Positions 22,356 through 61,709 are shown, counted from the stretch's first letter. The stretch: 61,709 bases of DNA from Elusimicrobiota bacterium (GCA_016204975.1 JACQJP010000032.1:1-61709), one strand, 5' to 3'. Numbers and translations: made by a program. The notes: generated by a model not told the origin, from the letters alone.

Positions 22356-23688
22356 TCTGCCGGGCTGCCTTCTCCCAACGGTAGTCTTGGCTGGCCTCAA
22401 AGGCGTGGTCTCCCATCTGCTTCCTCTGAGTCTGTGTCAGCTGCAGCATCCTTTGCAGGCCCTCTGTGAGGACCTGGGGCGCTCCTCTGCGGCTGGGATA
22501 GGTGACCAGGATCGCGTAGCCGGGCTTGAGGAGCGCTTGCGCGCCGTAATGCGCGCAGCTCAGGATGGGACATCTGGCCTGCATGGCCTCCAGAATGGTC
22601 AGCCCGAAGCTTTCGTGCCAGGAAGGGGAGATGAAGAAGTCCGAGAGCTGGAGAAAGGCCGTTTTCTGGACCTCCGTGAGGTGCCCGGGGAAATCCACTC
22701 GGATCTTTTTGAGCTTTCCCGCCAACTTTCTGAGCCGGTGAGAGTAGGCCGCCCCTCTCATGAAGGCCGGTTCGCCGCAGAGAAAGACTCGCAGGGGGGT
22801 GTCCGTCCTTCTTTCCAGATTTCCCAGGGATTCCAGCAGGATGTCCAAACCCTTCTCCGGAGAAAGTCGCCCGATGCAGGTGGCGACCATTTCCCCGTCT
22901 TCTACTGAGTAATCCTTGCGGATTTTCTGAGTTTCCTGCGCAACTGTCTCGGCATCGGCGAGGTTTCGGGCGGCAATCCCCCAGGGCACGATTTCGATTT
23001 TAGCGCGCAGCTCCTTTTCTTTTAGAAGATGGCGGTAGTTTTCAACCAACACCTCTTTCATGGCCGCAGAGGGAACCAGGAGCTTTTGGCAGTACCGCAC
23101 GGCGTGCTGCTCTTTCTCAAAGACCAGCCTCAGAACCTCCGGAACCAGAGATCTTAGCCGAAGCCGCTCTAGGCGATGGAAGAGGCGGGTGTAGAGGGAA
23201 TTTGGGAGAAGGCCTTTGAGGTAGATCTTTCCGAAGTAGTCCACTACGTCCACGTGGAGGATGGTCAGGCAGGGCACTCCCCAGCGCGCCAGCTTTTTAA
23301 AGTCCGGCCCCTCCGAGATGTCGTTGGAGACGAGGACCAGGGAGGAGGTGCGGATATGGGGGAGTATTTTTTCTTCGATGGCTTTTTCAAAGGCGCGGCA
23401 AAACCGGGCGTATTGCATCTCGTTGAGCCGGACCAGAGGCCGGGCCCCTAAGGCGTGTTGAGCCGGCACTCCCCGACCGTAGTCGGGTCCCGCAGGCTGA
23501 AGGTCCGTGGGGATAGGCAGGGTCTGGTAGAAGGGTTCCCTCCAGGAGTTGCCGGGGCCTAGGACGCTGAGTTCGAGGTCCGGATCGTTTTGCCATCTCA
23601 GGCTCAACTCCCTGGCCACCCGGGCTCCTCCTCCCAATGGAAGGTCTTCCGGAAATCCGGAGTGGGCGGCGGTGTAGATTAGATGCAC
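22321..23688 (-). CDS. Glycosyltransferase family 1 (GT-B, GT4-like)
   Basis: C-terminal GT1 core (..RLSPEKGLD..FISPSWHESFGLTILEAM..). GTG start abuts the stop of the upstream GYF gene. Carries one antisense Family-1 repeat (..PAGPDYGRGVPAQHALGARP..). Confidence 0.85.
   Translation of the reverse strand: MHLIYTAAHSGFPEDLPLGGGARVARELSLRWQNDPDLELSVLGPGNSWREPFYQTLPIPTDLQPAGPDYGRGVPAQHALGARPLVRLNEMQYARFCRAFEKAIEEKILPHIRTSSLVLVSNDISEGPDFKKLARWGVPCLTILHVDVVDYFGKIYLKGLLPNSLYTRLFHRLERLRLRSLVPEVLRLVFEKEQHAVRYCQKLLVPSAAMKEVLVENYRHLLKEKELRAKIEIVPWGIAARNLADAETVAQETQKIRKDYSVEDGEMVATCIGRLSPEKGLDILLESLGNLERRTDTPLRVFLCGEPAFMRGAAYSHRLRKLAGKLKKIRVDFPGHLTEVQKTAFLQLSDFFISPSWHESFGLTILEAMQARCPILSCAHYGAQALLKPGYAILVTYPSRRGAPQVLTEGLQRMLQLTQTQRKQMGDHAFEASQDYRWEKAARQIKAQAVACLKS
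23437..23497 (+). repeat. Family-1 57-nt mini-element, copy A (antisense inside glycosyltransferase CDS)
   Basis: aggccgggcccctaaggcgtgttgagccggcactccccgaccgtagtcgggtcccgcaggc. Flanking AGGC repeats are 57 nt apart. Confidence 0.9.
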
Positions 23689-25800: not shown

Positions 25801-25890
25801 ATCCCCTGTCGGCGGGCAGGTGGATGGCTTTAGCCAGCCAACCGTAAGATAACAGGAAAGCCCATCTGTTGCAATGGTTTTTTGAAGGTC

Positions 25891-26451: not shown

Positions 26452-26462
26452 CGCATTCTCCT

Positions 26463-27209: not shown

Positions 27210-27228
27210 GGTATGACCTCCGTGGATA

Positions 27229-27969: not shown

Positions 27970-28032
27970 GGGCCTCTCATTGTAGCCAATTCCTTCTTCG
28001 GTTGGAAATGATACAATGCGGCTTGTCTAACC

Positions 28033-29121
28033 ATGCCGCGCAGAGTCCGATGGGTGGTGGGGATGTTTTTGCTCCTGGGGCCGCCGGAGCTGGGCTGGAC
28101 CCAGGATGTGGGGGAGTCCCTGCGGTTTCAACAGCGGGTCCCACAGGCCGGGCCCCAAGGGCGTGTGGAGCCGGCACTCCCCGACCGTAGTCGGGTCCCA
28201 CAGGCCGGGGCCCCTCCGGGGACGGTGGTGTTCGAGACGGTGGCCAGCGACCCTCCAGTCGCTGCCTTTAACGCCCTTTTGTTTCACGGAATCCTCACCA
28301 CCGACCGGATTGAATTTCAGGCCTCGATCCAAACAGAGGATGGAACTTGGAGCCCGTGGAAAAAAGCCTATCTGAAGCGCCACCCCAACGGCCGTTTTTG
28401 GGCCCGGGTCCGCTGGAAACAGATGCACCAGGCTCCGGTCAAGCTCCGGGCGGTCAGTCTGGGCATCTCCGGCGAGTGGACCCTGCAGGTGTTGGATGTA
28501 GAGGTTTTCTTACATGAAGAAGGAGATTCTTCGGGTTCCGGGCTTTTGCCCTCATTGCAATCCCTGCCCCCTTCCTGGATCCTCCGGGATCGGTGGGGGG
28601 CGTATCCTCCCCGCGAGCCCTATGAGCCTCACGTGCCGGATCGGATCACGCTGCACCATACCGCGGGACTTCAGACCTTTGCCTTGGAAGATTCCCTGGC
28701 GGAGGTGCGCTGGATCCAGGATTTCCACCAAAACGGCAGGGGCTGGAACGACATCGGCTACCACTTTTTGGTGGATGGGGAGGGAAGGGTTTTTCAGGGA
28801 AGGCCGGTTCAGGCGGTGGGAGCCCACGTCAAGGACGGCAATGCCGGAAACGTGGGGATTGCGCTGTTGGGATATTTTCACGCTCCGGTTTCGGATCAAC
28901 CCAGCGAGCTTCAGCTTCAGGGATTTATCCAGGCTGGGCGTTGGGTGGTGCGGAGTTTTGGGGCAGGCTCGGAGACTTTGCGGGGACACAGGGACTACAA
29001 CCCCACGGCCTGCCCGGGCGATTTTCTCTACCCCCGCCTGGAATTTTTGAGGGAGCAGCTTCATTGGGATCTTATTCCCAGTTTTGACCCCACCGCTTTT
29101 TCCTTTCTCTTGCCTAAATAA
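28033..29121 (+). CDS. N-acetylmuramoyl-L-alanine amidase (Amidase_2 / PGRP fold)
   Basis: ITLHHTAG..WNDIGYHFLVDGEGRVFQGR..GAHV..GNVGIALLG..LRGHRDYNPTACPG. A sense Family-1 repeat sits after the signal peptide (RVPQAGPQGRVEPALPDRSRVPQAG). Confidence 0.88.
   Translation: MPRRVRWVVGMFLLLGPPELGWTQDVGESLRFQQRVPQAGPQGRVEPALPDRSRVPQAGAPPGTVVFETVASDPPVAAFNALLFHGILTTDRIEFQASIQTEDGTWSPWKKAYLKRHPNGRFWARVRWKQMHQAPVKLRAVSLGISGEWTLQVLDVEVFLHEEGDSSGSGLLPSLQSLPPSWILRDRWGAYPPREPYEPHVPDRITLHHTAGLQTFALEDSLAEVRWIQDFHQNGRGWNDIGYHFLVDGEGRVFQGRPVQAVGAHVKDGNAGNVGIALLGYFHAPVSDQPSELQLQGFIQAGRWVVRSFGAGSETLRGHRDYNPTACPGDFLYPRLEFLREQLHWDLIPSFDPTAFSFLLPK
28136..28208 (+). repeat. Family-1 mini-element, copy B (sense inside Amidase_2 CDS)
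   Basis: A 16-nt direct repeat gggtcccacaggccgg at 28136 and 28193 (57 nt apart) brackets the conserved core. Confidence 0.92.
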
Positions 29122-29122
29122 C

Positions 29123-29509
29123 CTACTTTTGGGTGGGTTCGGATTCCGGAAGGAGCTTGTGGATTTTTCCCATCAGACGCTGCGTCTGAATGGGTTTGGT
29201 AAGGTAGTCGGTTGCCCCCGCCGCGAAAGCCTTCTCGACGCTGCCCATTTTCTCCAGGGAGGTAAGCACCAGAATGGGGATCTTGGAGGTGAGCTGGTTT
29301 TGCTTGAGCATCTGGCAGACCTGAAAGCCGTCTAGCCTTGGCAGCAGCAGATCCAGGAGGATGAGATCGGGGGGATTTTGTTTGGCGGTTAAGACGGCGG
29401 TTTTTCCGTCCCGTGCCACCTCCGTCTGGAACCCCTTGATCTCCAGAATGGACTGCAGGGTCTCGGCGGTGTGCGGTTCGTCCTCCACGATCAGGATCTT
29501 TAGTTTCAT
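29123..29509 (-). CDS. Stand-alone response-regulator receiver (CheY-like)
   Basis: 128 aa. ILIVEDE..DLILLDLLLP..D(G)..PILVLTS..DYLTKP. No output domain. Confidence 0.9.
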   Translation of the reverse strand: MKLKILIVEDEPHTAETLQSILEIKGFQTEVARDGKTAVLTAKQNPPDLILLDLLLPRLDGFQVCQMLKQNQLTSKIPILVLTSLEKMGSVEKAFAAGATDYLTKPIQTQRLMGKIHKLLPESEPTQK

Positions 29510-29530
29510 ACGGAGTTCCTACTGAAAGAA

Positions 29531-29593
29531 GGCCTGTGGGACCCGACTACGGTCGGGGAGTGCCGGCTCAACACGCCTTTGGGGCCCGGCCTG
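29531..29593 (-). repeat. Family-1 mini-element, copy C (intergenic, 21 nt upstream of receiver gene 29123..29509, sense to it)
   Basis: The reverse complement matches the consensus. GGCCTG repeats at 29531 and 29588 are 57 nt apart. Confidence 0.92.
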
Positions 29594-29717
29594 ATGCCTC
29601 GGCTTCCAGAGTCTAGAATAGCCGATTTGAAATCCTACAATCAAGCTGGTGCCGGTTTCTTGCACCACCCGACCTTAGCGGGCCCCGTGTCTCCGAGGCG
29701 GATAAAGTCTCACGCCA

Positions 29718-30446: not shown

Positions 30447-30467
30447 TATTGCCGGACTTTTATAAAT

Positions 30468-31589: not shown

Positions 31590-31590
31590 C

Positions 31591-32253: not shown

Positions 32254-32365
32254 AGCATGGGCATTCTATAAAATTTTTAGGGCTTTCAAAAATTGGGCAA
32301 GAGACAGCTGAAGTGCCGTAAAAGAAAAATTTACAAGGGTTTTTAGAATTGGATAGAATGGGAGG

Positions 32366-32830: not shown

Positions 32831-32856
32831 AAAATTCCTTAAGGAGGACGGGGCTA

Positions 32857-33300: not shown

Positions 33301-33315
33301 GCGAGGGCGCGACGG

Positions 33316-36006: not shown

Positions 36007-36015
36007 CCGGGATAG

Positions 36016-46226: not shown

Positions 46227-46270
46227 GGAGGAACTTATTGTAGCATTTCCCCAGGCGTCGGGAAACTGGT

Positions 46271-49200
46271 ATGCTGTGGGGCAGACAGATGCTCAGCGTC
46301 CAGTACGGCCCCTTTCACCCCATCTTGGAGGAAGCCCTTGTGGAGAAGCTGCAGAGCCTCAAGGCGGCAGATCCTTTTTGCCGGGTGGTGGTCGTGGCGC
46401 CTTCCCGAAGGCTCTGTGACCGGCTCCAGAGGCTTTTGGCCGTAGAGAAGGGGCTGGCCGTTTTCAACGTCCATTTCCATACCTTCTACAGCCTCGCTTT
46501 CCAGATTATCCGGGAGGGGGACCCTCGTCCGGTTACCTTGCTCTCGGACCGCCTGTTCCATGACTTTTTGGTGGATCACTTGTTGGAGGAAGATTTCCGG
46601 CCTCCGGGGTCCCACAGGCCGGGCCCCAAAGGCGTGTGGAGCCGGCACTCCCCGACCGTAGTCGGGTCCCGCAGGCCGAAGGGCTTTTTGCCCGCTTTGC
46701 GCGCCAGCCTCAAGGACTTGGTAGATTCCGGAGTGGAGCCGGAGAGGGTCCGGGAGCTTTTGGCCGAGACCGAGGAGTCCGGCAGGCCTCTGGTTCGGCT
46801 GGACCCGGAGGAGGCGAGGCGGCTTTTGGAGCTTCTGGATCTGCAGGAGCGCTACCAAAAGCATTTGGAGGAGCTGGGCGTGACTGTTCCCAGCGGCATG
46901 ATCCGGCTGGCGACGGAGCTGGCGCCGGGCTCTGCGTACCTGAAAGAATTTCAGGAGATTCTCTATTACGGTTTTTATGATCTGACCGGCATCCAGACCG
47001 ATTTTTTTGAGGCGGTCTCCAGACACCATCCGGCGACCTTGTTTTTTCCCTACCGCCATGGACACCCGGCCTTCGCTTTTGCCCGGAGGTTTTTCGAGGA
47101 GAAGCTTCATGCTGCGGGCCGAGTCCCCATCGCCCTGCAACCAGATGAGGGACGGCCTCCCGCGCCGGCACCCTCCGCAGGGCTGCGAGTACCGGCCGGG
47201 AGGCCAAAGGCCTCCAGCGTGCCGGTTCGGGTGTGGAATGCGGCGGGTCCCCGGGAGGAGTCCTGGACGGTGGCCAAGGAAATCTTAAAACTGGTTCGAG
47301 GAGGCTGCGCCTTTCACCAAATCGGTATTGTGGCGCGTACCCTGGAGCCCTACCGGATGGTTTTGCGCCAGGTCTTGGAGGAAAACCGGATACCGGCCTG
47401 CTTTTCCTCCGGAAGGCCTCTGCTGAGCCATCCGCTGCCCCGTTTTTGTTTCTCCCTGCTTTCTTTTAAGCAGAGGGCCTTTCCGGCCATCCTTTTTGAG
47501 GACCTGCTTTCCTCCCCTTATCTTTGCACACAGAGTTGGGGAGATCCGGAAAGACAGAAGCTCCTCCGGCGTGGCTTCAAGAGGCTGGCACAGAGGCTTC
47601 GGATTCAGCGCGGGTGGCTTCAATGGGAAGGCAAGGTGAGGAGCTTTCTGGAAGGCGGACTCTCTTTAGAAGGGGAGGAGCCGGAGCGGGAGGGCCGCCT
47701 GCTTTGGGAGTGGATCCGGGAGGTCCGCCGGAATCTGATCTGGGCTTTGCAGGAGCCAGCCCCTTGGAAGGTCCGAATTCAGCGTGCTCAACAGGTTTTG
47801 GAAAGGTACTTCCGGCTTCCTGCAGATGCGACCGATTTGGAGAAGCGTCTTTGGGACGGGACCTGTGCGACGCTTCAGGAGCTGGAGCCATTGGAGCTTC
47901 TGGGCATCGGTGCGGAGGAAGAGGTTTTTTTGGAAGCCTGGGAGGATAAGCTAAAGGCCGCAGAGTTTCAGGAGTTTCCAGGGGAGAATTTGGGAGTTCG
48001 GGTTTTGGATGCCATGTCCGCTCGGGGGGAGAGCTTTGCCTATCTTTTTTTGATTGGACTTCAGGAGGGGCTTTTCCCGCGCAAGGTGCGGGAGGACCCC
48101 TTGCTGCGCGATTCGGTGCGCCGGGTGCTGAGCTCCCCTGGAGGGTACGGGATTCGCCCCAAGCTGGAGGGATATGAGGAGGAGCGGCTCTTGTTTCATC
48201 TGCTGACTTCTTCAGCCCGGAAGGGGCTCTTCTGCATCTATTCCCGTTCTGACGAGGAAGGGAGGGCAAAGATTGCCTCCGTCTACCTGCAGGAACTGGC
48301 GCGCACCAGAGACATCTGTTTGGAGGATTCCAAGAAAAATAGAAGCATCTTGAAGCAGCCCCTGGCTAAGATTCGAGGAGAGCCTTGGGAGGTCTTGAGT
48401 CCCAAGGAGGTTTCCTTGCGGCTGGCCTTTTCCGGGCAATCCCCGGGCGGTTTTTTGGAAAGCCTGGGGAAGGAGGCGGAGCTCTTTCGCGGCCCGGCTG
48501 AGGCCTTGGAGGCCATGAATACCTACGGAAATCCCGGCGAATTTGATGGCCGGATCGGTCCCCCCCGACCGTTTCTAAAGGCGCTTCGCCGCTCCGGGCT
48601 CTCTCCCAGCGCCCTGGCCAGTTTGGCGCGTTGCCCCTTTCAGTTTTTTGCCTCCCGGGTGTTGAAGTTGGGGGAGGTGGAGGAGCCCCAGGAGCCGGGG
48701 ACCCTGTCTTCAAAGGATACCGGAAAAATCTACCATCGGGTTCTGGAACTTTTTTATCGGAAGCTTTTGGAGCAGGGATACTGGAAGGGGAAACGCTCCG
48801 GGTTTCCCCGGCAGGTTTTTGAAGAGTGCGAACAGCAGGTATTTCGTCAATACCACTGGAAGAGTCTGGGATTGTATCCCGTTTTGTGGGAGGTTTTGCG
48901 CGAACGGATGCTTGCGCATTTGAGAGAATTTCTCCTTGGGGACATTCAGAGGGTTCGGGAGAGTGGGCATCTTCCTGTATATTTTGAGCAGGAGTTTTCG
49001 GCGTCTTCTTCCCAAACCCTCTTGGGAAAGGGCCGGGAGCTTCTTTTGCACGGTTTTCCGGACCGGGTGGACTTAGATGAGGTCCGGAGGCGTTTTTGGG
49101 TCTTTGATTACAAGACGAGGGGTAAGAAGGGAAATCTCTTGGCGGAGGTTTTACGGGGCAACCAGCTCCAGCCTTTACTTTACCTGGAAATTCTTCTGGC

Positions 49201-49555
49201 TGCCTTGAAGCGGGAGAAGGGTCCGGGCTGGGAGCCTCAGGGGACTGCCTTTTTAATTTTGGAGCAGGACCCCAACGGCTCGGAGGCAAAAACCATCCAA
49301 GAGATCCCTTGGCCCGAGTTTCGGGCCTGGCGGACCCGGGCGGCCAGGCATCTGGAAATTTTTCTAGGGCTTTTGTTTCGGGGGGAGTTTTGGATCTACC
49401 CCAAGGAGGGGGCGGGGGGGCACTGCCAGTGGTGCGCTTTCTCGCGGAGTTGCCGGAAGGGCCATTGGGCCACCCGGCTGCGCGCGAGATGCGGAGCCGG
49501 CTTTCAGGGGTTTCATGCGGTGAAGAATTTTTCTTTCAAAAAAGTTCTATCGTGA
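46271..49555 (+). CDS. addB: AddB-like helicase-nuclease subunit B (PD-(D/E)XK nuclease with Fe-S cysteines)
   Basis: 1094 aa. C-terminal nuclease motif ..RVDLDEV..WVFDYKT..LQPLLY.. and cysteines CPFQFF..CQWCAFSRSC. Overlaps addA (GTGA). Carries one Family-1 and one Family-2 repeat in frame. Confidence 0.85.
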   Translation: MLWGRQMLSVQYGPFHPILEEALVEKLQSLKAADPFCRVVVVAPSRRLCDRLQRLLAVEKGLAVFNVHFHTFYSLAFQIIREGDPRPVTLLSDRLFHDFLVDHLLEEDFRPPGSHRPGPKGVWSRHSPTVVGSRRPKGFLPALRASLKDLVDSGVEPERVRELLAETEESGRPLVRLDPEEARRLLELLDLQERYQKHLEELGVTVPSGMIRLATELAPGSAYLKEFQEILYYGFYDLTGIQTDFFEAVSRHHPATLFFPYRHGHPAFAFARRFFEEKLHAAGRVPIALQPDEGRPPAPAPSAGLRVPAGRPKASSVPVRVWNAAGPREESWTVAKEILKLVRGGCAFHQIGIVARTLEPYRMVLRQVLEENRIPACFSSGRPLLSHPLPRFCFSLLSFKQRAFPAILFEDLLSSPYLCTQSWGDPERQKLLRRGFKRLAQRLRIQRGWLQWEGKVRSFLEGGLSLEGEEPEREGRLLWEWIREVRRNLIWALQEPAPWKVRIQRAQQVLERYFRLPADATDLEKRLWDGTCATLQELEPLELLGIGAEEEVFLEAWEDKLKAAEFQEFPGENLGVRVLDAMSARGESFAYLFLIGLQEGLFPRKVREDPLLRDSVRRVLSSPGGYGIRPKLEGYEEERLLFHLLTSSARKGLFCIYSRSDEEGRAKIASVYLQELARTRDICLEDSKKNRSILKQPLAKIRGEPWEVLSPKEVSLRLAFSGQSPGGFLESLGKEAELFRGPAEALEAMNTYGNPGEFDGRIGPPRPFLKALRRSGLSPSALASLARCPFQFFASRVLKLGEVEEPQEPGTLSSKDTGKIYHRVLELFYRKLLEQGYWKGKRSGFPRQVFEECEQQVFRQYHWKSLGLYPVLWEVLRERMLAHLREFLLGDIQRVRESGHLPVYFEQEFSASSSQTLLGKGRELLLHGFPDRVDLDEVRRRFWVFDYKTRGKKGNLLAEVLRGNQLQPLLYLEILLAALKREKGPGWEPQGTAFLILEQDPNGSEAKTIQEIPWPEFRAWRTRAARHLEIFLGLLFRGEFWIYPKEGAGGHCQWCAFSRSCRKGHWATRLRARCGAGFQGFHAVKNFSFKKVLS
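46607..46678 (+). repeat. Family-1 mini-element, copy D (sense inside addB)
   Basis: gggtcccRcaggccg at 46607 and 46664 (57 nt apart). Translated as GPKGVWSRHSPTVVGS. Confidence 0.92.
47164..47229 (-). repeat. Family-2 mini-element, copy f (inside addB)
   Basis: gccgg at 47164 and 47221 (57 nt apart). Stem GGAGGCC aaa GGCCTCC. Translated as ..APSAGLRVPAGRPKASSVP... Confidence 0.88.
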
Positions 49556-52500
49556 GCACCCGTCGCAGCCCCCGGGTTTTGACGGACGAGGAGAGCCGTT
49601 GGGCGGCCCGCACGCACTTGGATGGGAACGCCGTGGTGGAGGCCGGCGCGGGGACGGGCAAGACGACGCTGCTGGTGGATCGTCTCATCTTTCTTCTGCT
49701 GGGCCGGCGCTGTCAGATTTCCCGGGCGGTGGCCCTGACCTTCACCGAGAAGGCCGCCGGAGAACTGAAGCGCAGGCTCGCGCAGACCTTGGAGGCGATA
49801 GTCCGTTGGGCGGGGCAGACCAATGGGGTATGCGATCCTCATCTGCTGCAGATCGTGCAGAGACTGCAATCGCAGTGGCGGCGCTCCAAACAGGAGATTG
49901 AGGTGTCGGCCCAGAGGGCGTTGCTAGAGATGGATCGGGCCTCCATCGGAACCCTCCATAGTTTCGCCGCAGATTTGCTGCGCCTGTACCCCTTGGAGTC
50001 GGGGATCTCCCCGGAGTTTCAGGTGGATGAGGGAAGGTCCTTTGAGGAGTTTTTCAGGTCGCAGTGGAGTCTTTGGCTGGACCGCGAGTTGGGGGAGGAG
50101 GCCCCGCGTAAGGGGTTGTGGAAAAAGCTTTTGCCGGAGGTGGGTCTGGAGGATTTGGCCTGCTTGGCCAGAGATTTGTGTCAGCTCAGAAGCTTGGAGG
50201 GGGTTGCCTCGTTGGAAAAAATTCGAGAAGCATTTGAGGTGGTGGGACCTTTTGTGGAAAGGTTTCGGCGAGAGCTTCTCCATAAGGACTGGCTCTCTTT
50301 CGATGGGCTCCTGGTCCGGGCCCGGGAGCTTTTGGTCGGCCATCGGACGGTGCGGGAGGATTTGAAGCGGACTTTTGAGGCCATTCTGATAGATGAGTTT
50401 CAGGACACCGATCCCCTCCAGGGAGAGATTCTGTTTTTCCTGTGCGAGAAAAGAGGGCAATCGGCGCGCTGTTGGGAGGAGGTGAATCTGGAGCCCGGAA
50501 AACTTTTTGTGGTGGGAGACCCCAAGCAGTCCATCTACCATTTTCGGGGGGCCGACATCGTCGCCTACCGCCGGTTCACCAGGCAGATGATTCGGCAAGG
50601 CTCGGAGCTTTTGCACCTGCAGGTCAATTTCAGAAGTCCGGCCGGCATTTTGGATCCGGTGCATGAGATATTTTCCAAAATCATGGACGGCCGCTCCCCC
50701 TATCAGGCGGATTATATCCCCATCTATCCCCATAAGAACTCCGAGCCTGTGGGACCCGACTACGGTCGGGGAGTGCCGGCTCCACACGCCTTTGGGACCC
50801 GGCCTGTGGAAGGTTCTGGGGTGGAGTGGGTTCAGGTGAGCTCCTCAAACCAGGCGGCGCCGGTCTCTGCGGAGGCGACCCGTCAGGCAGAGGCGGCCTG
50901 GATTGCGGAGTGGATTTCCTCCCACTGCTCCAAAAAAATTCTCTTCCGGGATGTGGCCATCCTTTTTAGAACCTCCACGCCTCACCCGCCTTATCTGGAG
51001 GCCTTGAGAGGCGCCGGCATCCCCTATGTAGTGACGGGGGAAAAGTATTTTTATTCGGCTCAGGAGGTGGTGGATTTTCAGAATCTTTTGTGTGCCTTGG
51101 AGGATCCCTATGATCCTGTCTCCCTGGTGGGTCTTTTGCGCTCGCCTTTGGTGGGCTTGACCGACTTGCAACTTTATGAACTCAGCCAAAAGGGCGCTTT
51201 ATGCTATCTTTCCGATCCGCCGAAAAACCTCTCTTGCAGCGCGCGCACAGCGGCTTTCTACCGCATGCTTCGGAGCTTCCACGCCCTCGTGGGCAGGATG
51301 CCCCTGAGCGAGTTGGTCCATCGCCTCTTAAATGATACCCATCTTGTGGAGCTTTGTTCCCTGGCCTACCATCGGGAGCAGACCGCCTCTAACCTCACCA
51401 AGCTTTTGCGCCTGGCTTCTGAGGCCGGGGAGTTTGCCGGCCGAACCCTTCGGGAGTTTGCCGGGGCTTTAGAGGAGGCGGTGGCCGGGCTGGAGGAGGA
51501 GGGGGAAAGCCCTCTGGCGGATGAGAACTTCAATGCGGTCCGAGTTTTAACGGTCCATAAAGCCAAGGGGTTGGAGTTTCCCGTCATTTTCCTTCCCAAT
51601 CTTTCGGCTGCGGTTTCCGGCTCCCGGCAGAGCCCATCCTGCCTTTGGGAGGAGGCCTCCCGGAGGGTGGGTTTTCGGTTGAGGCAGGCGGGGGTGGCCA
51701 CTCCTCAGATGCTCCTTTTAGAACAGGAAAAGAAGCTACGGGAGAAGGAAGAGGAGGTCCGGATTTTGTATGTGGCCATGACCCGCGCCCGGCACAAGCT
51801 CTTTCTCTTATCCAATGAGCATAAGGCCCCCCAGGGCTCTTTGAGCGGCCTGATCCAGAAGGCGGGGACTTTTCGGGCGGCTCGCGTCCATCGGATTTCC
51901 GTGCAGGAGCTAGGCAAGCCGAAGAGTGGAAGACAAGCAAAGGAAAAAACCGATTCTTCACAGGCCGGACCCCAAAGGCGTGTTGAGCCGGCACTCCCCG
52001 ACCGTAGTCGGGTCCCACAGGCTGGGTGGAGGCGTCTGGCTTTGGATTGGAAAGCGCGAGAGAAGAGATGGGCGGCGGTACAGGAGGCCCCGTGCTTTCT
52101 AAGTCCTACGGCGCTTTCCGAAAAGTCTCTCCGGGTCCCACAGGCCGGGCGGACTGGAACGGGATCCGGGCTTTTGGTGGGCCAGCTGTGCCATGCGGTG
52201 CTGGAGGGGTGGGATTTTGGATCCTCCCCTGCAAAACTCAAGGACCCGATCTTGCTAAAGGAGAAAATTCACAAGGCTCTGACGCAGATAGAGCGGGGGC
52301 GTTTTGGAGAGCCGGGGCTGGAGAAGGCTCTTGGAGAGGAGGCGGAGGAGATTCTGCACCGCTTTTTTGAATCCGAGGTTTACCGGCGGATCGCAGGCTC
52401 TCGTATTTTGGGGCGCGAGGTGCCCTTTCTATATCCCTATGGAAACCAGGTGGTCCGGGGCAGTATGGATCTGCTTTATGAGTGGCGGGGCCGCTACAGG

Positions 52501-52728
52501 GTGGCTGATTATAAGACGGACCGCGTGCCGGACCCCAAAGGCGTGTTGAGCCGGCACTCCCCGACCGTAGTCGGGTCCCACAGGCCGGCATTCGAGATGC
52601 GCGCTTGGGCGGGGGAGTACCGGCAGCAGCGCCGGATGTATCTGGAGGCGGTCCGGAGGGGGACCGGGTGGAAGGATTGGAAGTTTGAGGTCATTTTTTT
52701 AAGGTTGGGCAAGAGCGTGATTTTATAG
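49552..52728 (+). CDS. addA: AddA / UvrD-family helicase-nuclease subunit A
   Basis: GTG start overlapping the addB stop. Walker A AGAGTGKTT, DEFQDT, VGDPKQSIY, ..TVHKAKGLEFP.., and C-terminal RecB nuclease ..GSMDLLYE..VADYKTD... Three Family-1 repeats plus one solo repeat end, all in frame. Confidence 0.9.
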   Translation: MSTRRSPRVLTDEESRWAARTHLDGNAVVEAGAGTGKTTLLVDRLIFLLLGRRCQISRAVALTFTEKAAGELKRRLAQTLEAIVRWAGQTNGVCDPHLLQIVQRLQSQWRRSKQEIEVSAQRALLEMDRASIGTLHSFAADLLRLYPLESGISPEFQVDEGRSFEEFFRSQWSLWLDRELGEEAPRKGLWKKLLPEVGLEDLACLARDLCQLRSLEGVASLEKIREAFEVVGPFVERFRRELLHKDWLSFDGLLVRARELLVGHRTVREDLKRTFEAILIDEFQDTDPLQGEILFFLCEKRGQSARCWEEVNLEPGKLFVVGDPKQSIYHFRGADIVAYRRFTRQMIRQGSELLHLQVNFRSPAGILDPVHEIFSKIMDGRSPYQADYIPIYPHKNSEPVGPDYGRGVPAPHAFGTRPVEGSGVEWVQVSSSNQAAPVSAEATRQAEAAWIAEWISSHCSKKILFRDVAILFRTSTPHPPYLEALRGAGIPYVVTGEKYFYSAQEVVDFQNLLCALEDPYDPVSLVGLLRSPLVGLTDLQLYELSQKGALCYLSDPPKNLSCSARTAAFYRMLRSFHALVGRMPLSELVHRLLNDTHLVELCSLAYHREQTASNLTKLLRLASEAGEFAGRTLREFAGALEEAVAGLEEEGESPLADENFNAVRVLTVHKAKGLEFPVIFLPNLSAAVSGSRQSPSCLWEEASRRVGFRLRQAGVATPQMLLLEQEKKLREKEEEVRILYVAMTRARHKLFLLSNEHKAPQGSLSGLIQKAGTFRAARVHRISVQELGKPKSGRQAKEKTDSSQAGPQRRVEPALPDRSRVPQAGWRRLALDWKAREKRWAAVQEAPCFLSPTALSEKSLRVPQAGRTGTGSGLLVGQLCHAVLEGWDFGSSPAKLKDPILLKEKIHKALTQIERGRFGEPGLEKALGEEAEEILHRFFESEVYRRIAGSRILGREVPFLYPYGNQVVRGSMDLLYEWRGRYRVADYKTDRVPDPKGVLSRHSPTVVGSHRPAFEMRAWAGEYRQQRRMYLEAVRRGTGWKDWKFEVIFLRLGKSVIL
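50746..50809 (-). repeat. Family-1 mini-element, copy E (antisense inside addA)
   Basis: cctgtgg at 50746 and 50803 (57 nt apart). Translated as VGPDYGRGVPAPHAFGTRPV. Confidence 0.92.
51959..52025 (+). repeat. Family-1 mini-element, copy F (sense inside addA)
   Basis: cacagg at 51959 and 52016 (57 nt apart). Translated as GPQRRVEPALPDRSRVPQAG. Confidence 0.92.
52133..52149 (+). repeat. Solo Family-1 terminal segment inside addA
   Basis: gggtcccacaggccggg alone, with no core. Translated as RVPQAG, in frame. Confidence 0.6.
52527..52588 (+). repeat. Family-1 mini-element, copy G (sense inside the addA nuclease domain)
   Basis: gccgg at 52527 and 52584 (57 nt apart). Translated as DPKGVLSRHSPTVVGSHRP, immediately after the DYKTD nuclease motif. 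Confidence 0.92.
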
Positions 52729-52758
52729 AGCCGCGCTAATTTCATAGAATAGTTTTAC

Positions 52759-52818
52759 CAGTCCGGGCCCCAAAGGCGAGTTGATCCGGCACTCCCCGAC
52801 CGTAGTCGGGTCCCACAG
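52759..52818 (+). repeat. Family-1 mini-element, copy H (intergenic, 12 nt upstream of receiver gene 52831..53217, sense to it)
   Basis: cagtccgggccccaaaggcgagttgatccggcactccccgaccgtagtcgggtcccacag. The most diverged copy, but the hairpin is intact. Confidence 0.88.
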
Positions 52819-52830
52819 ACAGAGGCGCCA

Positions 52831-53217
52831 ATGAAGAAACGTAGAATTTTTGTGGTGGACGATGATCCGGAGATCCTAAAACTCATCCACTCGGTTTTGG
52901 AAGAGCATGGGTATGAGGTGGAGAGTTTTGATCGGGCTGCCTCCGCCTATGAGGAGCTAAAGAGGAAATCCGCGGATTTGGTCTTTCTGGATGTGGATAT
53001 GCCGGGAACGGACGGCTTGGAGCTTTGCCGCATCTTGAAGAATGACGCCGCATTCCAGAGCACACACATCATTATGCTGACGGCCCATGAAGATATGAAG
53101 ATTGTGGAGCGCGCCTTTAATTTCGGGGCCGAGGATTATCTGGTCAAGCGGATCTTCAACGAGGATTTACTGCTACAGAAGGTCCAGCGGGCCTTCCAGC
53201 CACACCTGCCGCAATAG
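52831..53217 (+). CDS. Stand-alone response-regulator receiver (CheY-like)
   Basis: 128 aa. IFVVDDD..DLVFLDVDMPGTDG..IIMLTA..DYLVK. Confidence 0.9.
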   Translation: MKKRRIFVVDDDPEILKLIHSVLEEHGYEVESFDRAASAYEELKRKSADLVFLDVDMPGTDGLELCRILKNDAAFQSTHIIMLTAHEDMKIVERAFNFGAEDYLVKRIFNEDLLLQKVQRAFQPHLPQ

Positions 53218-53224
53218 TCGCCAG

Positions 53225-53608: not shown

Positions 53609-53704
53609 GGGGCGGTTGTCTTGGAAAGCTATTTTACCATACCCCGCAGCCTCTTTCGCCCGTGCATTTTATTTTTTATATAATGTTTCCAGCCGGAGAA
53701 ATAT

Positions 53705-57263: not shown

Positions 57264-57271
57264 GAAAAACC

Positions 57272-58453: not shown

Positions 58454-58480
58454 CCCCCCTTTCCTTCAAAGCACTTGACT

Positions 58481-59902: not shown

Positions 59903-59905
59903 CCA

Positions 59906-60565
59906 GTGCTGCTTACCTGTGTTTCCTCAGCGACCTCTGCCGGCTCATTGAAGGGATCAGCCTTTCGAGTTGTCGACTTGGGTTTGCGGGATTACCGGAA
60001 GGTCTGGACCCTGCAAAAGGAACTGGTGCGCAGGAGATCTGCGGGGAAGATTCCGGATACCCTTCTTTTGGTTGAGCACTCCCCTGTCTATACGGTTGGG
60101 AGGGGTTTGCGCAAGGATTCCCAGGATATCCCTTCTTCCATTCCCGTCTATGAGGTGGAGCGTGGAGGGGGCGTCACCTATCATGGCCCCGGCCAGTTGG
60201 CGGGGTACCCCATTCTCCATCTGCAGGAAAAGAACCTTAAAATTTCGGATTATTTTCGGTTGCTGGAGGAGGTGATTCTGCAGACCTTGGCAGCTTTCGA
60301 TATCTCCGGCAATAGGATTCGGGGATTTCGCGGGGTGTGGGTGGAAAAAAAGAAAATCGCCTCCATCGGCATCGCCGTCTCCCAGGGGATCGCCTACCAC
60401 GGTTTTGCGTTGAACGTCAATCCTGACTTGGATTTTTTTGAAAAAATTTGTCCCTGCGGCCTCCAGCCTTCCTCCATGACCTCGATGGAAAAAATTCTAA
60501 ACGGCTCTCCTTCCATGGCGGCGGTCCGGCAGGAACTCTCCTCCACCTTCCGGTCTACTTTCTAG
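59906..60565 (+). CDS. lipB: Octanoyltransferase LipB
   Basis: ..LLLVEHSPVYTVGR..RGGGVTYHGPGQL..KIASIGI..HGFALNV.. motifs. Closes the lipoate/ODH cluster. Confidence 0.88.
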   Translation: MLLTCVSSATSAGSLKGSAFRVVDLGLRDYRKVWTLQKELVRRRSAGKIPDTLLLVEHSPVYTVGRGLRKDSQDIPSSIPVYEVERGGGVTYHGPGQLAGYPILHLQEKNLKISDYFRLLEEVILQTLAAFDISGNRIRGFRGVWVEKKKIASIGIAVSQGIAYHGFALNVNPDLDFFEKICPCGLQPSSMTSMEKILNGSPSMAAVRQELSSTFRSTF

Positions 60566-60628
60566 CACGCTGGCGCCCCCTGGGGGGCGCTTGGCGGGCG
60601 CCCGAAGCACTGCGAAGGGTGCTAAAGG
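60562..60628 (+). repeat. Family-2 mini-element, copy g (intergenic, starts at the lipB stop codon)
   Basis: ctagcacgctgGCGCCCCctgGGGGCGCttggcgggcgcccgaagcactgcgaagggtgcta. Confidence 0.8.
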
Positions 60629-60716
60629 GACCTTTGGTCCCGGAGGTTTTTGGCAAAGGTCCTAGGAACTCCTAGGACCTTTTTCTTTTGTTTTCTAGGA
60701 CTTTGGACCCATAGAG
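60625..60716 (+). repeat. Family-3 repeat, copy 3 (downstream of lipB)
   Basis: gggacctttggtcccggaggtttttggcAAAGGTCCTAGGaactCCTAGGACCTTTttc..ctaggactttggaccc. Contains a perfect 12-bp inverted repeat. Confidence 0.7.
60654..60694 (+). terminator. Rho-independent terminator after lipB
   Basis: 12-bp perfect stem AAAGGTCCTAGG-aact-CCTAGGACCTTT followed by ttttcttttgtttt. Confidence 0.7.
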
Positions 60717-60746
60717 GTTTTATGGGGATGTGGTAGCATTGATTCA

Positions 60747-61079
60747 ATGCCGATTAAGAAAGGGAAACCAGCAGCTACTAAGGAGGATGTAACCAGCGCT
60801 GTAGGTTCCGCTACGAAGGCGCTTCGCACGGAAATCCATAGAGCTGTAGATTCGGCGAAATCAGAGCTTCGCACGGAAATCCGCAGTGTTGACCAAAAGA
60901 CTGACCGGATTGCCAAAGAGTTGGTGAATACACAGTGTGAGATGAGGCAGATGAAGCAAGATCTCTCAAACCTCATCACGGAAGGCAACTCGAGGATTTT
61001 TAAGCTGCTGGAAGATTGTGCCTCGGATATCCGAAAGATTGACCATCGCCAGGTAATCACCACGGGAGGTAAATCATGA
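60747..61079 (+). CDS. Small coiled-coil protein (hypothetical)
   Basis: 110 aa, heptad-rich. An internal 17-nt exact direct repeat (gcttcgcacggaaatcc at 60821 and 60866, 45 nt apart) gives ..LRTEIHRAVDSAKSELRTEIRSV... G+C looks lower than the flanks. Confidence 0.5.
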   Translation: MPIKKGKPAATKEDVTSAVGSATKALRTEIHRAVDSAKSELRTEIRSVDQKTDRIAKELVNTQCEMRQMKQDLSNLITEGNSRIFKLLEDCASDIRKIDHRQVITTGGKS

Positions 61080-61709
61080 TTGCCAAGTTCTTATCCGCCT
61101 TGATTTGTGGGAGTCTCATTTTGACCTCCCCGGGTTTGGGGAGTTATCAATCTTTGGCCGGTGGGTTGCGGAAGGCTCCGGCCGGGAAGGCCGCAGCGGT
61201 AGGGGTGTCTCCTGTTTTGCCCCCTCTCCTTGTTTTTGGGCGAGTCCAATTCCCCCGGTTGATTCAGGTGGATGGGGGATTTGTCCGGCCCTACAATATC
61301 GTTGACGATCAGATCCGCTATGAGCGGATCGGTTTGGAGGAGGCGCAGGGTTTGCTGGAGCAGGGGGTGGAGGCGGTTTCTTTTGCAAGCCCGGAGCTTC
61401 TAGTGAAGGAGAAGGAAGCCTTGAGGGTTTGGGTGGCTCAGGGGCAGAAGACCGCCCGGCAAGAACTGGAGGGTGTGGAAGCGCATTTGCGGCAAGAGGG
61501 CTACGGCGGCATCCTGGATATGGTGGCTTCTCAAGGAGGGACTCCGCAAAACTCAGACAGGTTTGCACAACTTTCTGCGGTTGCCTTTGACTTGAATCAG
61601 CGTGAAGAAAGGCCTGTCTATCCTCAGGAGGTTGCTCCTATCCAGGCCGGGCCCCAAAGGCGTGTTGAGCCGTCACTCCCCGACCGTAGTCGGGTCCCAC
61701 AGGCCGGTC
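61076..61709 (+). CDS. Hypothetical secreted protein (3' end cut by window edge)
   Basis: Read by hand; absent from the track because there is no stop in the window. ATGA overlap with the previous stop. MIAKFLSALICGSLILTSPGLG signal-like N-terminus. The frame stays open to base 61709 and runs through a sense Family-1 repeat (QAGPQRRVEPSLPDRSRVPQAG). Confidence 0.55.
   Translation, partial: MIAKFLSALICGSLILTSPGLGSYQSLAGGLRKAPAGKAAAVGVSPVLPPLLVFGRVQFPRLIQVDGGFVRPYNIVDDQIRYERIGLEEAQGLLEQGVEAVSFASPELLVKEKEALRVWVAQGQKTARQELEGVEAHLRQEGYGGILDMVASQGGTPQNSDRFAQLSAVAFDLNQREERPVYPQEVAPIQAGPQRRVEPSLPDRSRVPQAG
61643..61707 (+). repeat. Family-1 mini-element, copy I (sense inside partial CDS at window end)
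   Basis: caggccgg at 61643 and 61700 (57 nt apart). Confidence 0.9.

What the first reader, a model, noticed from the sequence alone, without database searches (positions are those of the whole stretch)
23437..61709. Family-1: a conserved hairpin-bearing mini-element, 9 copies, 7 of them inside intact protein-coding genes in three reading registers
The same roughly 60-nt sequence recurs nine times. Consensus: caggccgggccccaaaggcgtgtKgagccggcactCCCGACcgtaGTCGGGtcccacaggccgg, containing a perfect 6-bp stem with a cgta loop.

Copies are at 23437, 28136, 29531(rc), 46607, 50746(rc), 51959, 52527, 52759 and 61643. Seven lie inside ORFs that otherwise look complete and conserved: a GT1 glycosyltransferase, an Amidase_2, addB, addA (three copies) and the partial ORF at the window end.

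The same DNA is translated three ways:
- ..PQRRVEPALPDRSRVPQAG.. in copies B, F and I.
- ..PKGV(W/L)SRHSPTVVGS.. in copies D and G.
- On the opposite strand, ..VGPDYGRGVPA(P/Q)HA(F/L)G.. in copies A and E.

Conservation of nucleotides across different frames and both orientations rules out a protein motif and argues for a DNA/RNA-level element. By hand translation, 5 of the 6 frames of the consensus are stop-free. The one closed frame (TGA or TAG) is never the one used by a host gene.

The closest precedent I know is the Rickettsia palindromic elements, which also insert in frame into genes, but those are longer and unrelated in sequence. A hairpin combined with a GTAG tetranucleotide also recalls REP elements mobilised by RAYT transposases, but REPs are normally extragenic. 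No transposase is present in this window.
Basis: partly seen in the sequence, partly recalled or inferred. Interest (0 to 1): 0.88.

Follow-up and report, generated by a model that had tools for sequence, protein, structure and literature searches.

The report
19-codon repeat living inside genes
A 57-base hairpin-bearing DNA repeat has copied itself into at least nine places in this groundwater Elusimicrobia genome, mostly inside intact genes, where it adds 19 extra amino acids to a loop; this is a new, very small relative of the "selfish DNA in protein-coding genes" first seen in Rickettsia.

Summary
Nine copies, 91-98% identical, lie at the stated coordinates. Seven are inside intact genes, read in three registers on two strands, and five of the six frames are open.

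Alignments with homologues show the copies are insertions. Exactly 19 residues are extra in the AddA nuclease domain and in the GT4 glycosyltransferase. About 18 are extra in a PduO-type adenosyltransferase elsewhere in the same MAG, and 15-23 in AddB. AlphaFold models the peptide in GT4 as a disordered loop.

New findings:
- The net insert is always one 57-nt unit, flanked by a 3-18-nt direct repeat of its own opposite end. Tandem dimers and a 19-nt "solo" junction also exist. There are no long terminal inverted repeats and no classical target-site duplication.
- Variation is confined to the 5' half. The hairpin-bearing 3' half is nearly invariant.
- The family occurs in a second Elusimicrobia MAG.
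- A sister family (F2) has the same 57-nt unit and compensatory hairpin changes. It is spread over at least six further Elusimicrobia MAGs.

Verdict: this is a translated, non-autonomous interspersed repeat, like RPEs and intragenic REPs in behaviour but a member of neither family. The mobilising activity is unknown. No transposase lies in the window, and the rest of the genome could not be read.

The parts
23434..23498 (+). F1 copy A. It lies inside the GT4 glycosyltransferase gene and is read on the opposite strand as ..PAGPDYGRGVPAQHALGAR.. The direct repeat is about 9 nt.
   Evidence: After removing 19 aa, the spacing matches 13 homologues. AlphaFold pLDDT is below 50 for residues 57-83.
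28135..28214 (+). F1 copy B, about 1.3 units with an 18-nt terminal direct repeat CGGGTCCCACAGGCCGGG. It lies in the N-terminal linker of the Amidase_2 protein, in frame +1.
   Evidence: Homologues start to align only after the element, and their N-termini are 11-21 aa shorter.
29531..29595 (-). F1 copy C. It is intergenic and ends 21 nt before the start codon of the CheY-like response regulator 29123-29509(-), in sense orientation. The direct repeat is CAGGCC.
46607..46678 (+). F1 copy D, with a 15-nt direct repeat GGGTCCCRCAGGCCG. It lies in AddB, in frame +2 (..PGPKGVWSRHSPTVVGSRR..).
   Evidence: Seven AddB orthologues are 15-23 residues shorter at this loop.
50744..50812 (-). F1 copy E. 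It lies in AddA and is read antisense (..VGPDYGRGVPAPHAFGTRP..).
   Evidence: Orthologues are gapped at this variable loop.
51959..52025 (+). F1 copy F. It lies in the AddA linker, in frame +1. It is the GGACCCC variant, shared with copy G.
   Evidence: The region is too variable in orthologues to size the insert.
52132..52150 (+). Solo 19-mer CGGGTCCCACAGGCCGGGC in AddA (..SLRVPQAGRTG..). It is the junction of two units (0.33 unit) and is probably what is left after a unit was lost by recombination between the direct repeats.
52522..52588 (+). F1 copy G. It lies in the AddA nuclease domain, 3 residues after the DYKTD motif, in frame +2. The direct repeat is GCCGG.
   Evidence: All 8 orthologues show a gap of exactly 19 residues.
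52757..52821 (+). F1 copy H. It is intergenic, between the addA stop codon (52728) and the start of the CheY-like response regulator 52831-53217(+). It lies downstream of a promoter-like site at 52722-52750. The direct repeat is CAG.
61641..61707 (+). F1 copy I. It lies at the C-terminal end of the run-off ORF 61076-61709, in frame +1. The contig ends 2 nt after this extent.
   Evidence: (P0006).
22321..23688 (-). Host gene: GT4 glycosyltransferase.
28033..29121 (+). Host gene: Amidase_2 (N-acetylmuramoyl-L-alanine amidase family).
46271..49555 (+). Host gene: addB-like (PD-(D/E)XK). It also carries an F2 copy at 47161-47232.
49555..52728 (+). Host gene: addA-like (UvrD helicase plus nuclease). 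The start is approximate: homology begins near 49570, and the open frame runs back to 49309.
47161..47232 (+). A representative copy of the sister family F2. It is a 57-nt unit with the hairpin GGAGGCC-AAA-GGCCTCC, in frame in AddB. Other window copies lie near 10466-10530(+), 17936-18000(-), 18059-18131(-), 24293-24354(+), 32063-32134(-) and 60562-60626(-).

Best explanation
Family-1 is a small, non-autonomous interspersed repeat of a groundwater Elusimicrobia lineage. It spreads at the DNA level and survives inside genes because it is compatible with coding.

Shown:
- Each copy is a net insertion of one 57-nt unit (19 codons). The unit has no stop codon in five of six frames.
- In the frames actually used (+1, +2, -1) it encodes Pro/Gly/Arg/Ser-rich peptides without Cys or Trp. 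In the one case modelled, the peptide forms a disordered loop.
- Homologues lack these residues.

Inferred: insertions that broke a gene or a fold were removed by selection. What is left is a set of genes 'decorated' with a neutral or nearly neutral 19-residue loop.

Anatomy of the unit: 5'-GGCCGGG CCCC AAAGG CGTGTKGA GCCGGCAC TC [CCCGAC CGTA GTCGGG] TCCCACAG-3'.
- There are no long terminal inverted repeats, only a 6-bp subterminal complement (GGGCCC/GGGTCC).
- There is no target-derived duplication.
- Instead, the unit is bracketed by a 3-18-nt repeat of its own other end. Copies also exist as about 1.3 units, as tandem dimers and as a 0.33-unit solo.

Inferred mechanism: the donor behaves as a circular or tandem template that is copied or integrated in whole units, at sites resembling the unit junction (..CACAGG^CC..). 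The nearly invariant hairpin-bearing 3' half is the cis-acting site recognised by the mobilising activity. That activity is most plausibly a hairpin/ssDNA-specific enzyme of the HUH-Y1 (IS200/IS605-RAYT) type, or another recombinase, encoded elsewhere in the genome. Slippage between the flanking direct repeats then produces the dimers and the solo.
For: **A real and non-random repeat**
- Nine exact cores are found against 0.01 expected.
- Pairwise identity is 91-98%.

**Insertions, not ancestral sequence**
- AddA copy G: an exact 19-residue gap in 8 of 8 orthologues.
- GT4 copy A: 17 residues remain between the anchors after removing 19 aa, the same as in the homologues.
- PduO (P0005): an 18-residue gap against 3ci1.
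- AddB copy D: orthologues are 15-23 residues shorter.

**Read in three registers; five of six frames open**.

**Disordered loop**: pLDDT is below 50 for GT4 residues 57-83 in a model with mean pLDDT 84.7.

**Whole-unit behaviour**
- The register analysis shows a 57-nt period in every copy, with direct repeats of 3 to 18 nt.
- P0001 and P0003 carry tandem dimers.
- A solo junction lies in AddA.
- Direct repeats of 10 nt or more at a spacing of exactly 57 occur three times, against a mean of 0.22 for spacings of 20-150.

**Cis-site**
- There are 24 mismatches in the 5' half and 3 in the 3' half (p=3.5e-5; window copies only, 13 against 2, p=0.007).
- In the sister family F2, 4 of 7 hairpin pairs show compensatory changes, and 0 of 500 shuffles reach the observed score.

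**Found in independent assemblies**: F1 is also in MAG NC_groundwater_1151. F2 is in at least six further Elusimicrobia MAGs, including a Rifle MAG.

**Local spread**: copies F and G share the GGACCCC variant and lie 563 nt apart. Four of the 7 intragenic copies lie in addAB (p=0.003).
Against: - No mobilising enzyme has been seen. The window holds none, and the rest of the source genome could not be fetched.
- No empty-site/filled-site pair is available. The closest homologues are at most 47% identical. Boundaries and target are therefore inferred from the copies themselves.
- The F1 hairpin never varies, so it offers no covariation evidence of its own.
- Whole-element folds are no more stable than shuffles (z from -1.3 to +0.4).
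- The variable repeat length of 3-18 nt is unusual for any known transposase. It would also fit an enzyme-free template-switch process.
- Expression of the decorated proteins has not been tested.
- The copies in the second MAG were found by exact matches to the 3' half, which inflates the asymmetry test. The window-only test avoids this.
Confidence: 0.7

Rival explanations
1. Enzyme-free spread by template switching (a dispersed minisatellite). A nascent strand ending in a few bases that match the unit junction anneals to another copy that has flanking direct repeats or is tandem. It copies exactly one unit, then returns to its original template. No transposase is needed.
For: - The net insert is always one 57-nt unit, whatever the register.
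- The junction microhomology varies from 3 to 18 nt.
- There are dimers, a 0.33-unit solo and about 1.3-unit copies.
- There are no terminal inverted repeats or target-site duplications.
- No transposase lies in the window.
- Copies cluster locally in addA.
Against: - It does not explain why the 3' half and its hairpin are nearly invariant while the 5' half drifts.
- It does not explain why F2 keeps its hairpin through compensatory changes.
- It does not explain why only two sequence families, rather than arbitrary sequences, spread in this way.
- Microhomologies of 3-5 nt (copies G and H) are very short for strand annealing.
Confidence: 0.2
2. It is a bona fide REP element (GTAG class) mobilised by a RAYT, simply found inside genes.
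For: - It has a G+C-rich 6-bp hairpin with a 4-nt loop and a GTAG tetranucleotide.
- Read across the unit junction, GTAG-TC-GGGTCC-CACAGGCC-GGRCCC resembles the GTAG-1/2 layout of tag, dinucleotide and stem-loop described in PMC3733652.
- Intragenic REPs are known and are enriched in recBCD/uvr genes (PMC3733652). Here 4 of 7 intragenic copies are in addAB.
- Sub-families with alternative complementary stems (F2) are typical of REPs.
Against: - GTAG lies inside hairpin 1 (loop plus 3' arm) and is not a terminal tag.
- The junction hairpin is complete only in copies B and D.
- The unit is 57 nt, not 20-40 nt.
- There are no head-to-head or tail-to-tail inverted dimers. The dimers seen are direct tandems.
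- Seven of the 9 copies are intragenic.
- No RAYT has been seen, although this could not be tested beyond the window.
Confidence: 0.15
3. It is a functional cis-regulatory RNA or DNA signal, for example a 5'-UTR hairpin of response-regulator genes. The intragenic copies would be by-products.
For: - Three of the 4 intergenic F1 copies sit just upstream of response-regulator genes, in sense orientation: window copies C and H, and L081/L113.
- Both response-regulator genes of the window carry a copy upstream.
- Copy H lies between a promoter-like site and the start codon.
- One F2 copy (L136) also precedes a response-regulator N-terminus.
- The hairpin half is conserved.
Against: - Most copies are inside unrelated genes, on either strand.
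- There is no Rfam match.
- The distance to the start codon varies from 12 to about 110 nt.
- The sample is small.
Confidence: 0.08
4. It is an assembly or chimera artefact of a short-read MAG.
For: The source is a MAG. The contig ends at copy I, and contigs of the second MAG break inside the element.
Against: - The copies differ by point substitutions and fall into sub-variants.
- All host ORFs stay open.
- The element is shorter than a read.
- F1 is found in a second MAG's assembly and F2 in further data sets, including Rifle.
- Contig breaks at repeats are what real repeats produce.
Confidence: 0.03
5. It is a shared protein module selected at the peptide level.
For: Only 3 of the 5 open frames are used (p=0.03 in the window, 0.001 over 13 loci).
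Against: - Three different peptides arise from the same DNA, on both strands.
- Some copies are intergenic.
- Homologues lack the residues.
- The peptide is predicted to be disordered.
- The frame bias is better explained by selection against the Cys/Trp-containing frames.
Confidence: 0.01

Closest known systems
Rickettsia palindromic elements (RPE; Ogata et al. 2000, as summarised in PMC10969869)
   Same: Both are interspersed repeats that sit in frame inside many unrelated, otherwise intact housekeeping genes. Both add a peptide at tolerated sites. Both exist as several families in one lineage, and no transposase has been identified for either.
   Different: RPEs are about 100-150 bp and palindromic over their whole length. 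They occur in Rickettsia (Alphaproteobacteria), and some carry a CGTC end tag. F1 is 57 nt with one 6-bp hairpin and is not palindromic overall. It is bracketed by a repeat of its own end, forms tandem dimers, and occurs in Elusimicrobia. No sequence relationship to RPEs was found.
Intragenic REPs of the GTAG/CGTC super-families (Di Nocera et al. 2013, PMC3733652)
   Same: Both are short G+C-rich stem-loop repeats found inside ORFs, encoding about 20-30 extra residues. Both are conspicuously frequent in recombination and repair genes (recBCD, uvrABCD); here the hosts are addA and addB. Both include sub-families with complementary stem changes.
   Different: REPs are 20-40 nt units with a terminal GTAG or CGTC tag. 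They are mostly extragenic, often form inverted dimers, and are linked to RAYT genes. In F1 the GTAG is inside the hairpin, the unit is 57 nt, the dimers are direct, and 7 of 9 copies are intragenic.
Mycobacterial interspersed repetitive units (MIRU; from my own knowledge, Supply et al. 1997/2000, not read here)
   Same: Both are dispersed minisatellite-like units of about 50-100 bp, present as one to a few direct tandem copies per locus. Both have unit lengths compatible with reading frames. The dispersal mechanism is unknown for both. MIRUs were first found in a two-component-system operon.
   Different: MIRUs are intergenic within operons and are not embedded in enzyme-coding sequences. They have no conserved hairpin core.
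MITEs and IS200/IS605-derived palindrome-associated elements
   Same: All are small, non-autonomous, multi-copy elements. IS200/IS605 derivatives also lack terminal inverted repeats and target-site duplications, use subterminal hairpins, and insert next to a short specific sequence through a circular ssDNA intermediate.
   Different: MITEs have terminal inverted repeats and target-site duplications of fixed length. IS200/IS605 derivatives have two different hairpin ends and are usually longer than 100 nt. F1 has neither feature, and its flanking repeat varies in length.

Membership tests
Rickettsia palindromic elements (RPE) | In-frame presence inside intact protein-coding genes. | tested here: met
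   Seven of 9 copies lie in open ORFs. Homologues lack the residues.
Rickettsia palindromic elements (RPE) | Element of about 100-150 bp that is palindromic over its length. | tested here: not met
   The unit is 57 nt. Only a 6-bp hairpin and a 6-bp subterminal complement are present. Fold z-scores range from -1.3 to +0.4.
Rickettsia palindromic elements (RPE) | Sequence membership in RPE-1..10, and occurrence in Rickettsiales. | tested here: not met
   All matches to the element are in Elusimicrobia MAGs. Rfam has no match. RPE consensus sequences were not compared directly.
REP (GTAG/CGTC-tagged) elements | Stem-loop unit of 20-40 nt with a terminal GTAG or CGTC tag. | tested here: not met
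   GTAG spans the loop and the 3' arm of the hairpin. CGTC does not occur on either strand. The unit is 57 nt.
REP (GTAG/CGTC-tagged) elements | Association with a RAYT (IS200/IS605-type Y1 transposase) gene flanked by the repeats. | not testable with these tools
   None is present among about 55 window ORFs. The other contigs of the source MAG could not be retrieved.
REP (GTAG/CGTC-tagged) elements | Predominantly extragenic, often as inverted (head-to-head or tail-to-tail) dimers. | tested here: not met
   Seven of 9 copies are intragenic. The only dimers seen are direct tandems (P0001 and P0003).
MITE | Terminal inverted repeats, plus a target-site duplication of fixed length and variable sequence. 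| tested here: not met
   No terminal inverted repeat longer than 6 bp is present. The flanking repeats are 3-18 nt and are always sub-strings of CGGGTCCCACAGGCCGGGCCCC.
IS200/IS605-derived non-autonomous elements | Subterminal hairpins at both ends, insertion 3' of a fixed tetra- or pentanucleotide, and no duplication. | tested here: inconclusive
   One conserved hairpin lies 9 nt from the 3' end. The left flank is CAGG in 6 of 9 copies and GAGG in copy A; the right flank starts with C in 8 of 9 copies. A second hairpin forms only across the unit junction. No TnpA was seen.
Dispersed minisatellite (MIRU-like) | The same unit at many loci, in one to several direct tandem copies. | tested here: met
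   Forms of 0.33, about 1.05-1.4 and about 2.2 units were found.
Dispersed minisatellite (MIRU-like) | Intergenic location within operons, with translational coupling. | tested here: not met
   Most copies lie inside enzyme-coding sequence.

The most novel reading that the evidence does not exclude
F1 and F2 may represent a previously undescribed class of mobile DNA specialised for living inside genes. In this reading they are end-less 19-codon units that propagate from a circular or tandem template in whole-unit steps. A structure-specific enzyme that recognises only a hairpin would drive this (or replication template switching would). Length and frame content would have evolved so that insertion is translated into a harmless loop. 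These units might also have been co-opted, for example as 5'-UTR elements of response-regulator genes or as modifiers of the AddAB recombination nuclease.
Probability: 0.15. Interest if true: 0.85.

Novelty: new variant of a known kind. Interest (0 to 1): 0.58.

Why it matters
Repeats that persist inside functional genes are rare. They show how selfish DNA can create new protein segments. The classic cases are the Rickettsia RPEs and a handful of intragenic REPs.

This case extends the phenomenon to free-living groundwater Elusimicrobia. The element is much smaller (exactly 19 codons) and has an unusual anatomy: whole-unit insertion, repeats of its own end, tandem dimers and solos. That anatomy constrains the possible mechanism.

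There are also practical consequences. Such elements break MAG contigs, create spurious small 'hypothetical proteins', and add non-homologous loops that distort alignments and structure predictions of housekeeping proteins. Here they include three insertions in the AddA helicase-nuclease, one of them next to its catalytic DYK motif.

Tried and rejected
- The first genome-contig scan used a mistyped pattern (CTCCCGAC instead of CTCCCCGAC). Its null result is void. It was replaced.
- **Metagenome, viral, phage and plasmid searches.** Two metagenome-contig scans (20-mer and left arm), viral contigs and phages gave no match. Plasmids gave only chance matches in Streptomyces.
- **Rfam.** There was no match at the gathering threshold or at E<=10. 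No tRNA was found.
- **Other contigs of the source MAG.** Attempts through the look-up of encoding contigs failed. Genome-wide copy number, the genic/intergenic ratio and a transposase search were therefore impossible.
- **Five-frame peptide query against 5.8 billion proteins.** It gave only six short proteins, even at E<=10. It did not recover the window's own long hosts, so the count is a lower bound and not proof of restriction.
- **Empty-site test.** It was not possible, because the nearest homologues are at most 47% identical.
- **Whole-element RNA/DNA structure.** Folds are not better than shuffles, so a large structured RNA is rejected.
- **Homology between F1 and F2.** The evidence is only weak (circular alignment p about 0.05; nhmmer does not cross-detect them). 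I treat them as sharing architecture, not as proven relatives.
- **Sigma-54 or terminator readings of the hairpin.** These were rejected: the spacing is wrong and there is no U-tract.
- **Strand bias relative to replication.** Seven of 9 copies lie on the leading (+) strand as judged by GC skew. This is not significant.
Full report
**1. The observation**

The 16-nt core CCCGACCGTAGTCGGG occurs exactly nine times in the window. The positions are 23472+, 28180+, 29542-, 46651+, 50755-, 51997+, 52560+, 52795+ and 61679+. Shuffles give 0.01 expected matches. A tenth hit with two mismatches at 42628 has no flanking similarity.

The 27-nt left arm is found at the same nine places. The repeat finder groups the copies, and an nhmmer profile finds no further full copy. 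Over 58 nt the copies are 91-98% identical.

Seven copies lie in long open frames. Pfam identifies these as a GT4 glycosyltransferase, an Amidase_2, an AddB-like PD-(D/E)XK protein and an AddA-like UvrD helicase-nuclease with three copies. The seventh is the run-off ORF at the contig end.

The same DNA is read as AGPQRRVEPALPDRSRVPQ in copies B, F and I, and as PGPKGV(L/W)SRHSPTVVGS(H/R)R in copies D and G. On the other strand it is read as VGPDYGRGVPA(Q/P)HA(F/L)G.RP in copies A and E. Five of six frames of the consensus are open.

**2. The copies are insertions**

- AddA orthologues came from eight MAGs, mostly Elusimicrobiota, 28-42% identical. All eight show a gap of exactly 19 residues at copy G, three residues after the DYKTD nuclease motif. 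They are also gapped at copy E. Copy F lies in a linker too variable to judge.
- Seven AddB orthologues are 15-23 residues shorter at copy D.
- In the GT4 protein, removing the 19 element residues leaves 17 residues between the LGxGxx and LVxL anchors. Thirteen homologues have the same spacing.
- Amidase_2 homologues begin to align only after copy B, and their N-termini are 11-21 residues shorter.
- A PduO-type adenosyltransferase from another contig of the same MAG (P0005) carries the element at an 18-residue gap relative to the Lactobacillus reuteri structure 3ci1.
- An AlphaFold model of the GT4 host has mean pLDDT 84.7. Residues 57-83, which include the element peptide at 65-83, are modelled as coil with pLDDT below 50.

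That test fails, so the insertion reading stands.

**3. Source and range**

The window is a whole 61,709-nt contig of an NCBI MAG labelled Elusimicrobia bacterium, with locus tags HY402_. Its gene content is ordinary chromosome: mreBCD, PBP2, RNase G, amidases, mutL, mutS, ychF, addAB, aconitase, PFOR, the PDH complex and lipA/lipB. No transposase, integrase, reverse transcriptase or HUH protein is present.

The other contigs of this MAG could not be fetched. Five more proteins of the same MAG contain the element. Two of them carry tandem dimers (P0001, P0003), and one carries two copies in different frames (P0002). That search cannot detect single copies in long proteins, since it missed the window's own hosts. 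The count is therefore a lower bound.

My first collection scan was mistyped and is void. The correct scans found F1 in one other genome, the MAG NC_groundwater_1151 (GC about 52%, against 58% here). It has one locus split over two contig ends (L081 and L113), upstream of an OmpR-type response regulator. It also has a more diverged copy (L117) with a CTTA loop and nine changes in the left arm. Nothing was found in JGI metagenomes, viral contigs, phages or plasmids, and Rfam has no match.

**4. Anatomy**

I aligned each copy and its flanks to a circularly repeated consensus. In every copy the similarity spans one 57-nt period plus a short re-iteration of the unit's other end. The resulting direct repeat has these lengths:

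| Copy | Direct repeat (nt) |
|---|---|
| H | 3 |
| G | 5 |
| C | 6 |
| I | at least 8 |
| A, E | about 9 |
| F | 10 |
| D | 15 |
| B | 18 |

The repeat is always a sub-string of CGGGTCCCACAGGCCGGGCCCC. It is therefore not a target-derived duplication.

There is no long terminal inverted repeat. Only a 6-bp subterminal complement (GGGCCC/GGGTCC) is present, and it would form a second hairpin across the junction of two units.

A 19-nt solo, CGGGTCCCACAGGCCGGGC, lies at 52132-52150 in addA. It is exactly this junction. It is what recombination between the direct repeats of a 1.3-unit copy would leave. The tandem dimers are the reciprocal product.

Sequence variation is strongly asymmetric. There are 24 mismatches in the 5' half and 3 in the 3' half, which holds the hairpin and the end TCCCACAG (Fisher p=3.5e-5). 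Using window copies only, which avoids ascertainment bias, the counts are 13 and 2 (p=0.007). Whole-element folds are no more stable than shuffles.

**5. A sister family**

A second repeat (F2) has the consensus GCCGGCAC CCTCCGCAGNGCTNCGRGTACC GGCCGGG [stem-ARA-stem] CAGCGT. It has seven copies in the window. One is in frame in addB, at 47161-47232.

In the four window copies where it could be measured, the F2 unit is also exactly 57 nt. Its terminal direct repeat is 7-13 nt and sits at a different point of the unit. All six frames are open.

Its hairpin differs in sequence between copies but stays paired. Four of 7 pairs show compensatory changes, 88.6% of cells are paired against 68% in shuffles, and 0 of 500 shuffles reach the observed value.

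A pattern scan found F2 in ten loci of seven genomes. Six are labelled Elusimicrobia, including a Rifle MAG, and one is labelled only 'bacterium'. Some copies sit at apparently orthologous sites (L133/L136 and L137/L140). Several lie in long ORFs in the same frame, APSAxLRVPAG.

F1 and F2 share short motifs in the same order: GCCGGCAC, CGGGT(A/C)CC, GGCCGGG, A(A/G)AGG and CGTG. The similarity is statistically weak (p about 0.05), and the profiles do not cross-detect each other. I treat them as sharing an architecture, and possibly an origin.

**6. How it most likely works**

Shown: the element is a DNA-level repeat. It has been inserted into many unrelated sites in whole 57-nt units. It is translated-compatible in five frames, and it sits in positions that homologues lack and that are predicted to be disordered.

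Inferred:
- Only insertions that keep the host functional survive. Only three of the five open frames are seen (p=0.03 in the window, 0.001 over 13 loci). These are the frames without Cys or Trp.
- The invariant 3' half with its hairpin is the cis-acting site of whatever mobilises the element.
- The donor behaves as a circular or tandem template, because the ends are not fixed but the length is.
- The preferred target resembles the unit junction. The left flank is CAGG in 6 of 9 copies (GAGG in copy A), and the right flank begins with C in 8 of 9 copies.

A hairpin-specific ssDNA enzyme with a circular intermediate (HUH-Y1, the IS200/IS605-RAYT type) fits best. It could not be looked for.

The main rival is enzyme-free template switching between copies. 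It explains the whole-unit steps and the variable microhomology. It does not explain the conserved or compensated hairpins.

**7. Comparison with what is known**

In behaviour this matches the Rickettsia palindromic elements (PMC10969869) and the intragenic REPs described by Di Nocera et al. (PMC3733652). Those authors noted that such repeats are conspicuously frequent in recBCD and uvr repair genes and encode 20-30 residues. Here 4 of 7 intragenic copies are in addAB, which makes up 10.5% of the window (p=0.003).

The element is not a member of either family. It is not palindromic overall. It has no terminal GTAG or CGTC tag, because the GTAG is inside the hairpin. It is 57 nt long, forms direct rather than inverted dimers, and is mostly intragenic. 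It also fails the MITE definition, having neither terminal inverted repeats nor a fixed target-site duplication.

Its unit-wise behaviour resembles mycobacterial MIRUs (from my own knowledge; I did not read those papers here), but MIRUs are intergenic.

**8. Verdict**

This is a new variant of a known kind: coding-compatible selfish repeats. It occurs in a phylum where none was described in the literature I could search. It has a distinctive end-less 19-codon unit and a clade-wide sister family.

The mechanism remains open. It becomes directly testable once the full MAG and its reads are examined.

Noticed in passing
window 29531-29595(-) and 52757-52821(+); L081 4228-4295(-); L136 4690-4749: Three of the four intergenic F1 copies seen lie just upstream, in sense orientation, of response-regulator genes. 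Both response-regulator genes in the window have one (the chance of that is roughly 1e-3). One F2 copy in another MAG also precedes a response-regulator N-terminus (..RILAVDDEE). This could reflect target preference, a tolerant 5' UTR or a regulatory role; it is unexplained.
   Followed up: partly
window 10466-10530(+), 17936-18000(-), 18059-18131(-), 24293-24354(+), 32063-32134(-), 47161-47232(+), 60562-60626(-): This is a second repeat family (F2). In the four window copies where it could be measured, the unit is also exactly 57 nt. It has terminal direct repeats, all six frames are open, and its hairpin shows compensatory changes. It was found in seven other genomes, six of them labelled Elusimicrobia.
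   Followed up: partly
window 17936-17979 and 24693-24736: A 44-nt repeat, 91% identical between its two copies, abuts or overlaps F2 copies. It looks like an F2 sub-variant with the hairpin CCCGCC-AGA-GGCGGG. The second copy lacks the other half of the unit.
   Followed up: no
window 46271-52728: addB and addA together carry four F1 copies, one F1 solo remnant and one F2 copy. A fifth F1 copy lies immediately after the addA stop codon. Copy G sits three residues after the catalytic DYKTD motif of the nuclease domain.
   Followed up: partly
window 60795-60884: Two tandem 45-nt units, 73% identical, lie inside or next to the small ORF 60695-61063(-), which has no Pfam match.
   Followed up: no
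window 6744-8291, 10253-11302, 11488-12384, 28033-29121: The window holds four peptidoglycan amidase genes (three Amidase_3 and one Amidase_2). They lie near mreBCD and PBP2. The repeat at 10589-10649 and 11692-11752 reflects paralogy between two of the Amidase_3 genes.
   Followed up: no
window 61707-61709; L081 and L113 contig ends: Contigs of both MAGs end inside or right after F1 copies. These repeats fragment short-read assemblies. They probably also create spurious small 'hypothetical proteins' such as P0001-P0004.
   Followed up: partly
whole window: The nearest homologues of the proteins searched here (GT4, Amidase_2, AddA, AddB) are only 37-47% identical, even against 5.8 billion proteins. 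The MAG therefore represents a poorly sampled Elusimicrobia lineage.
   Followed up: no
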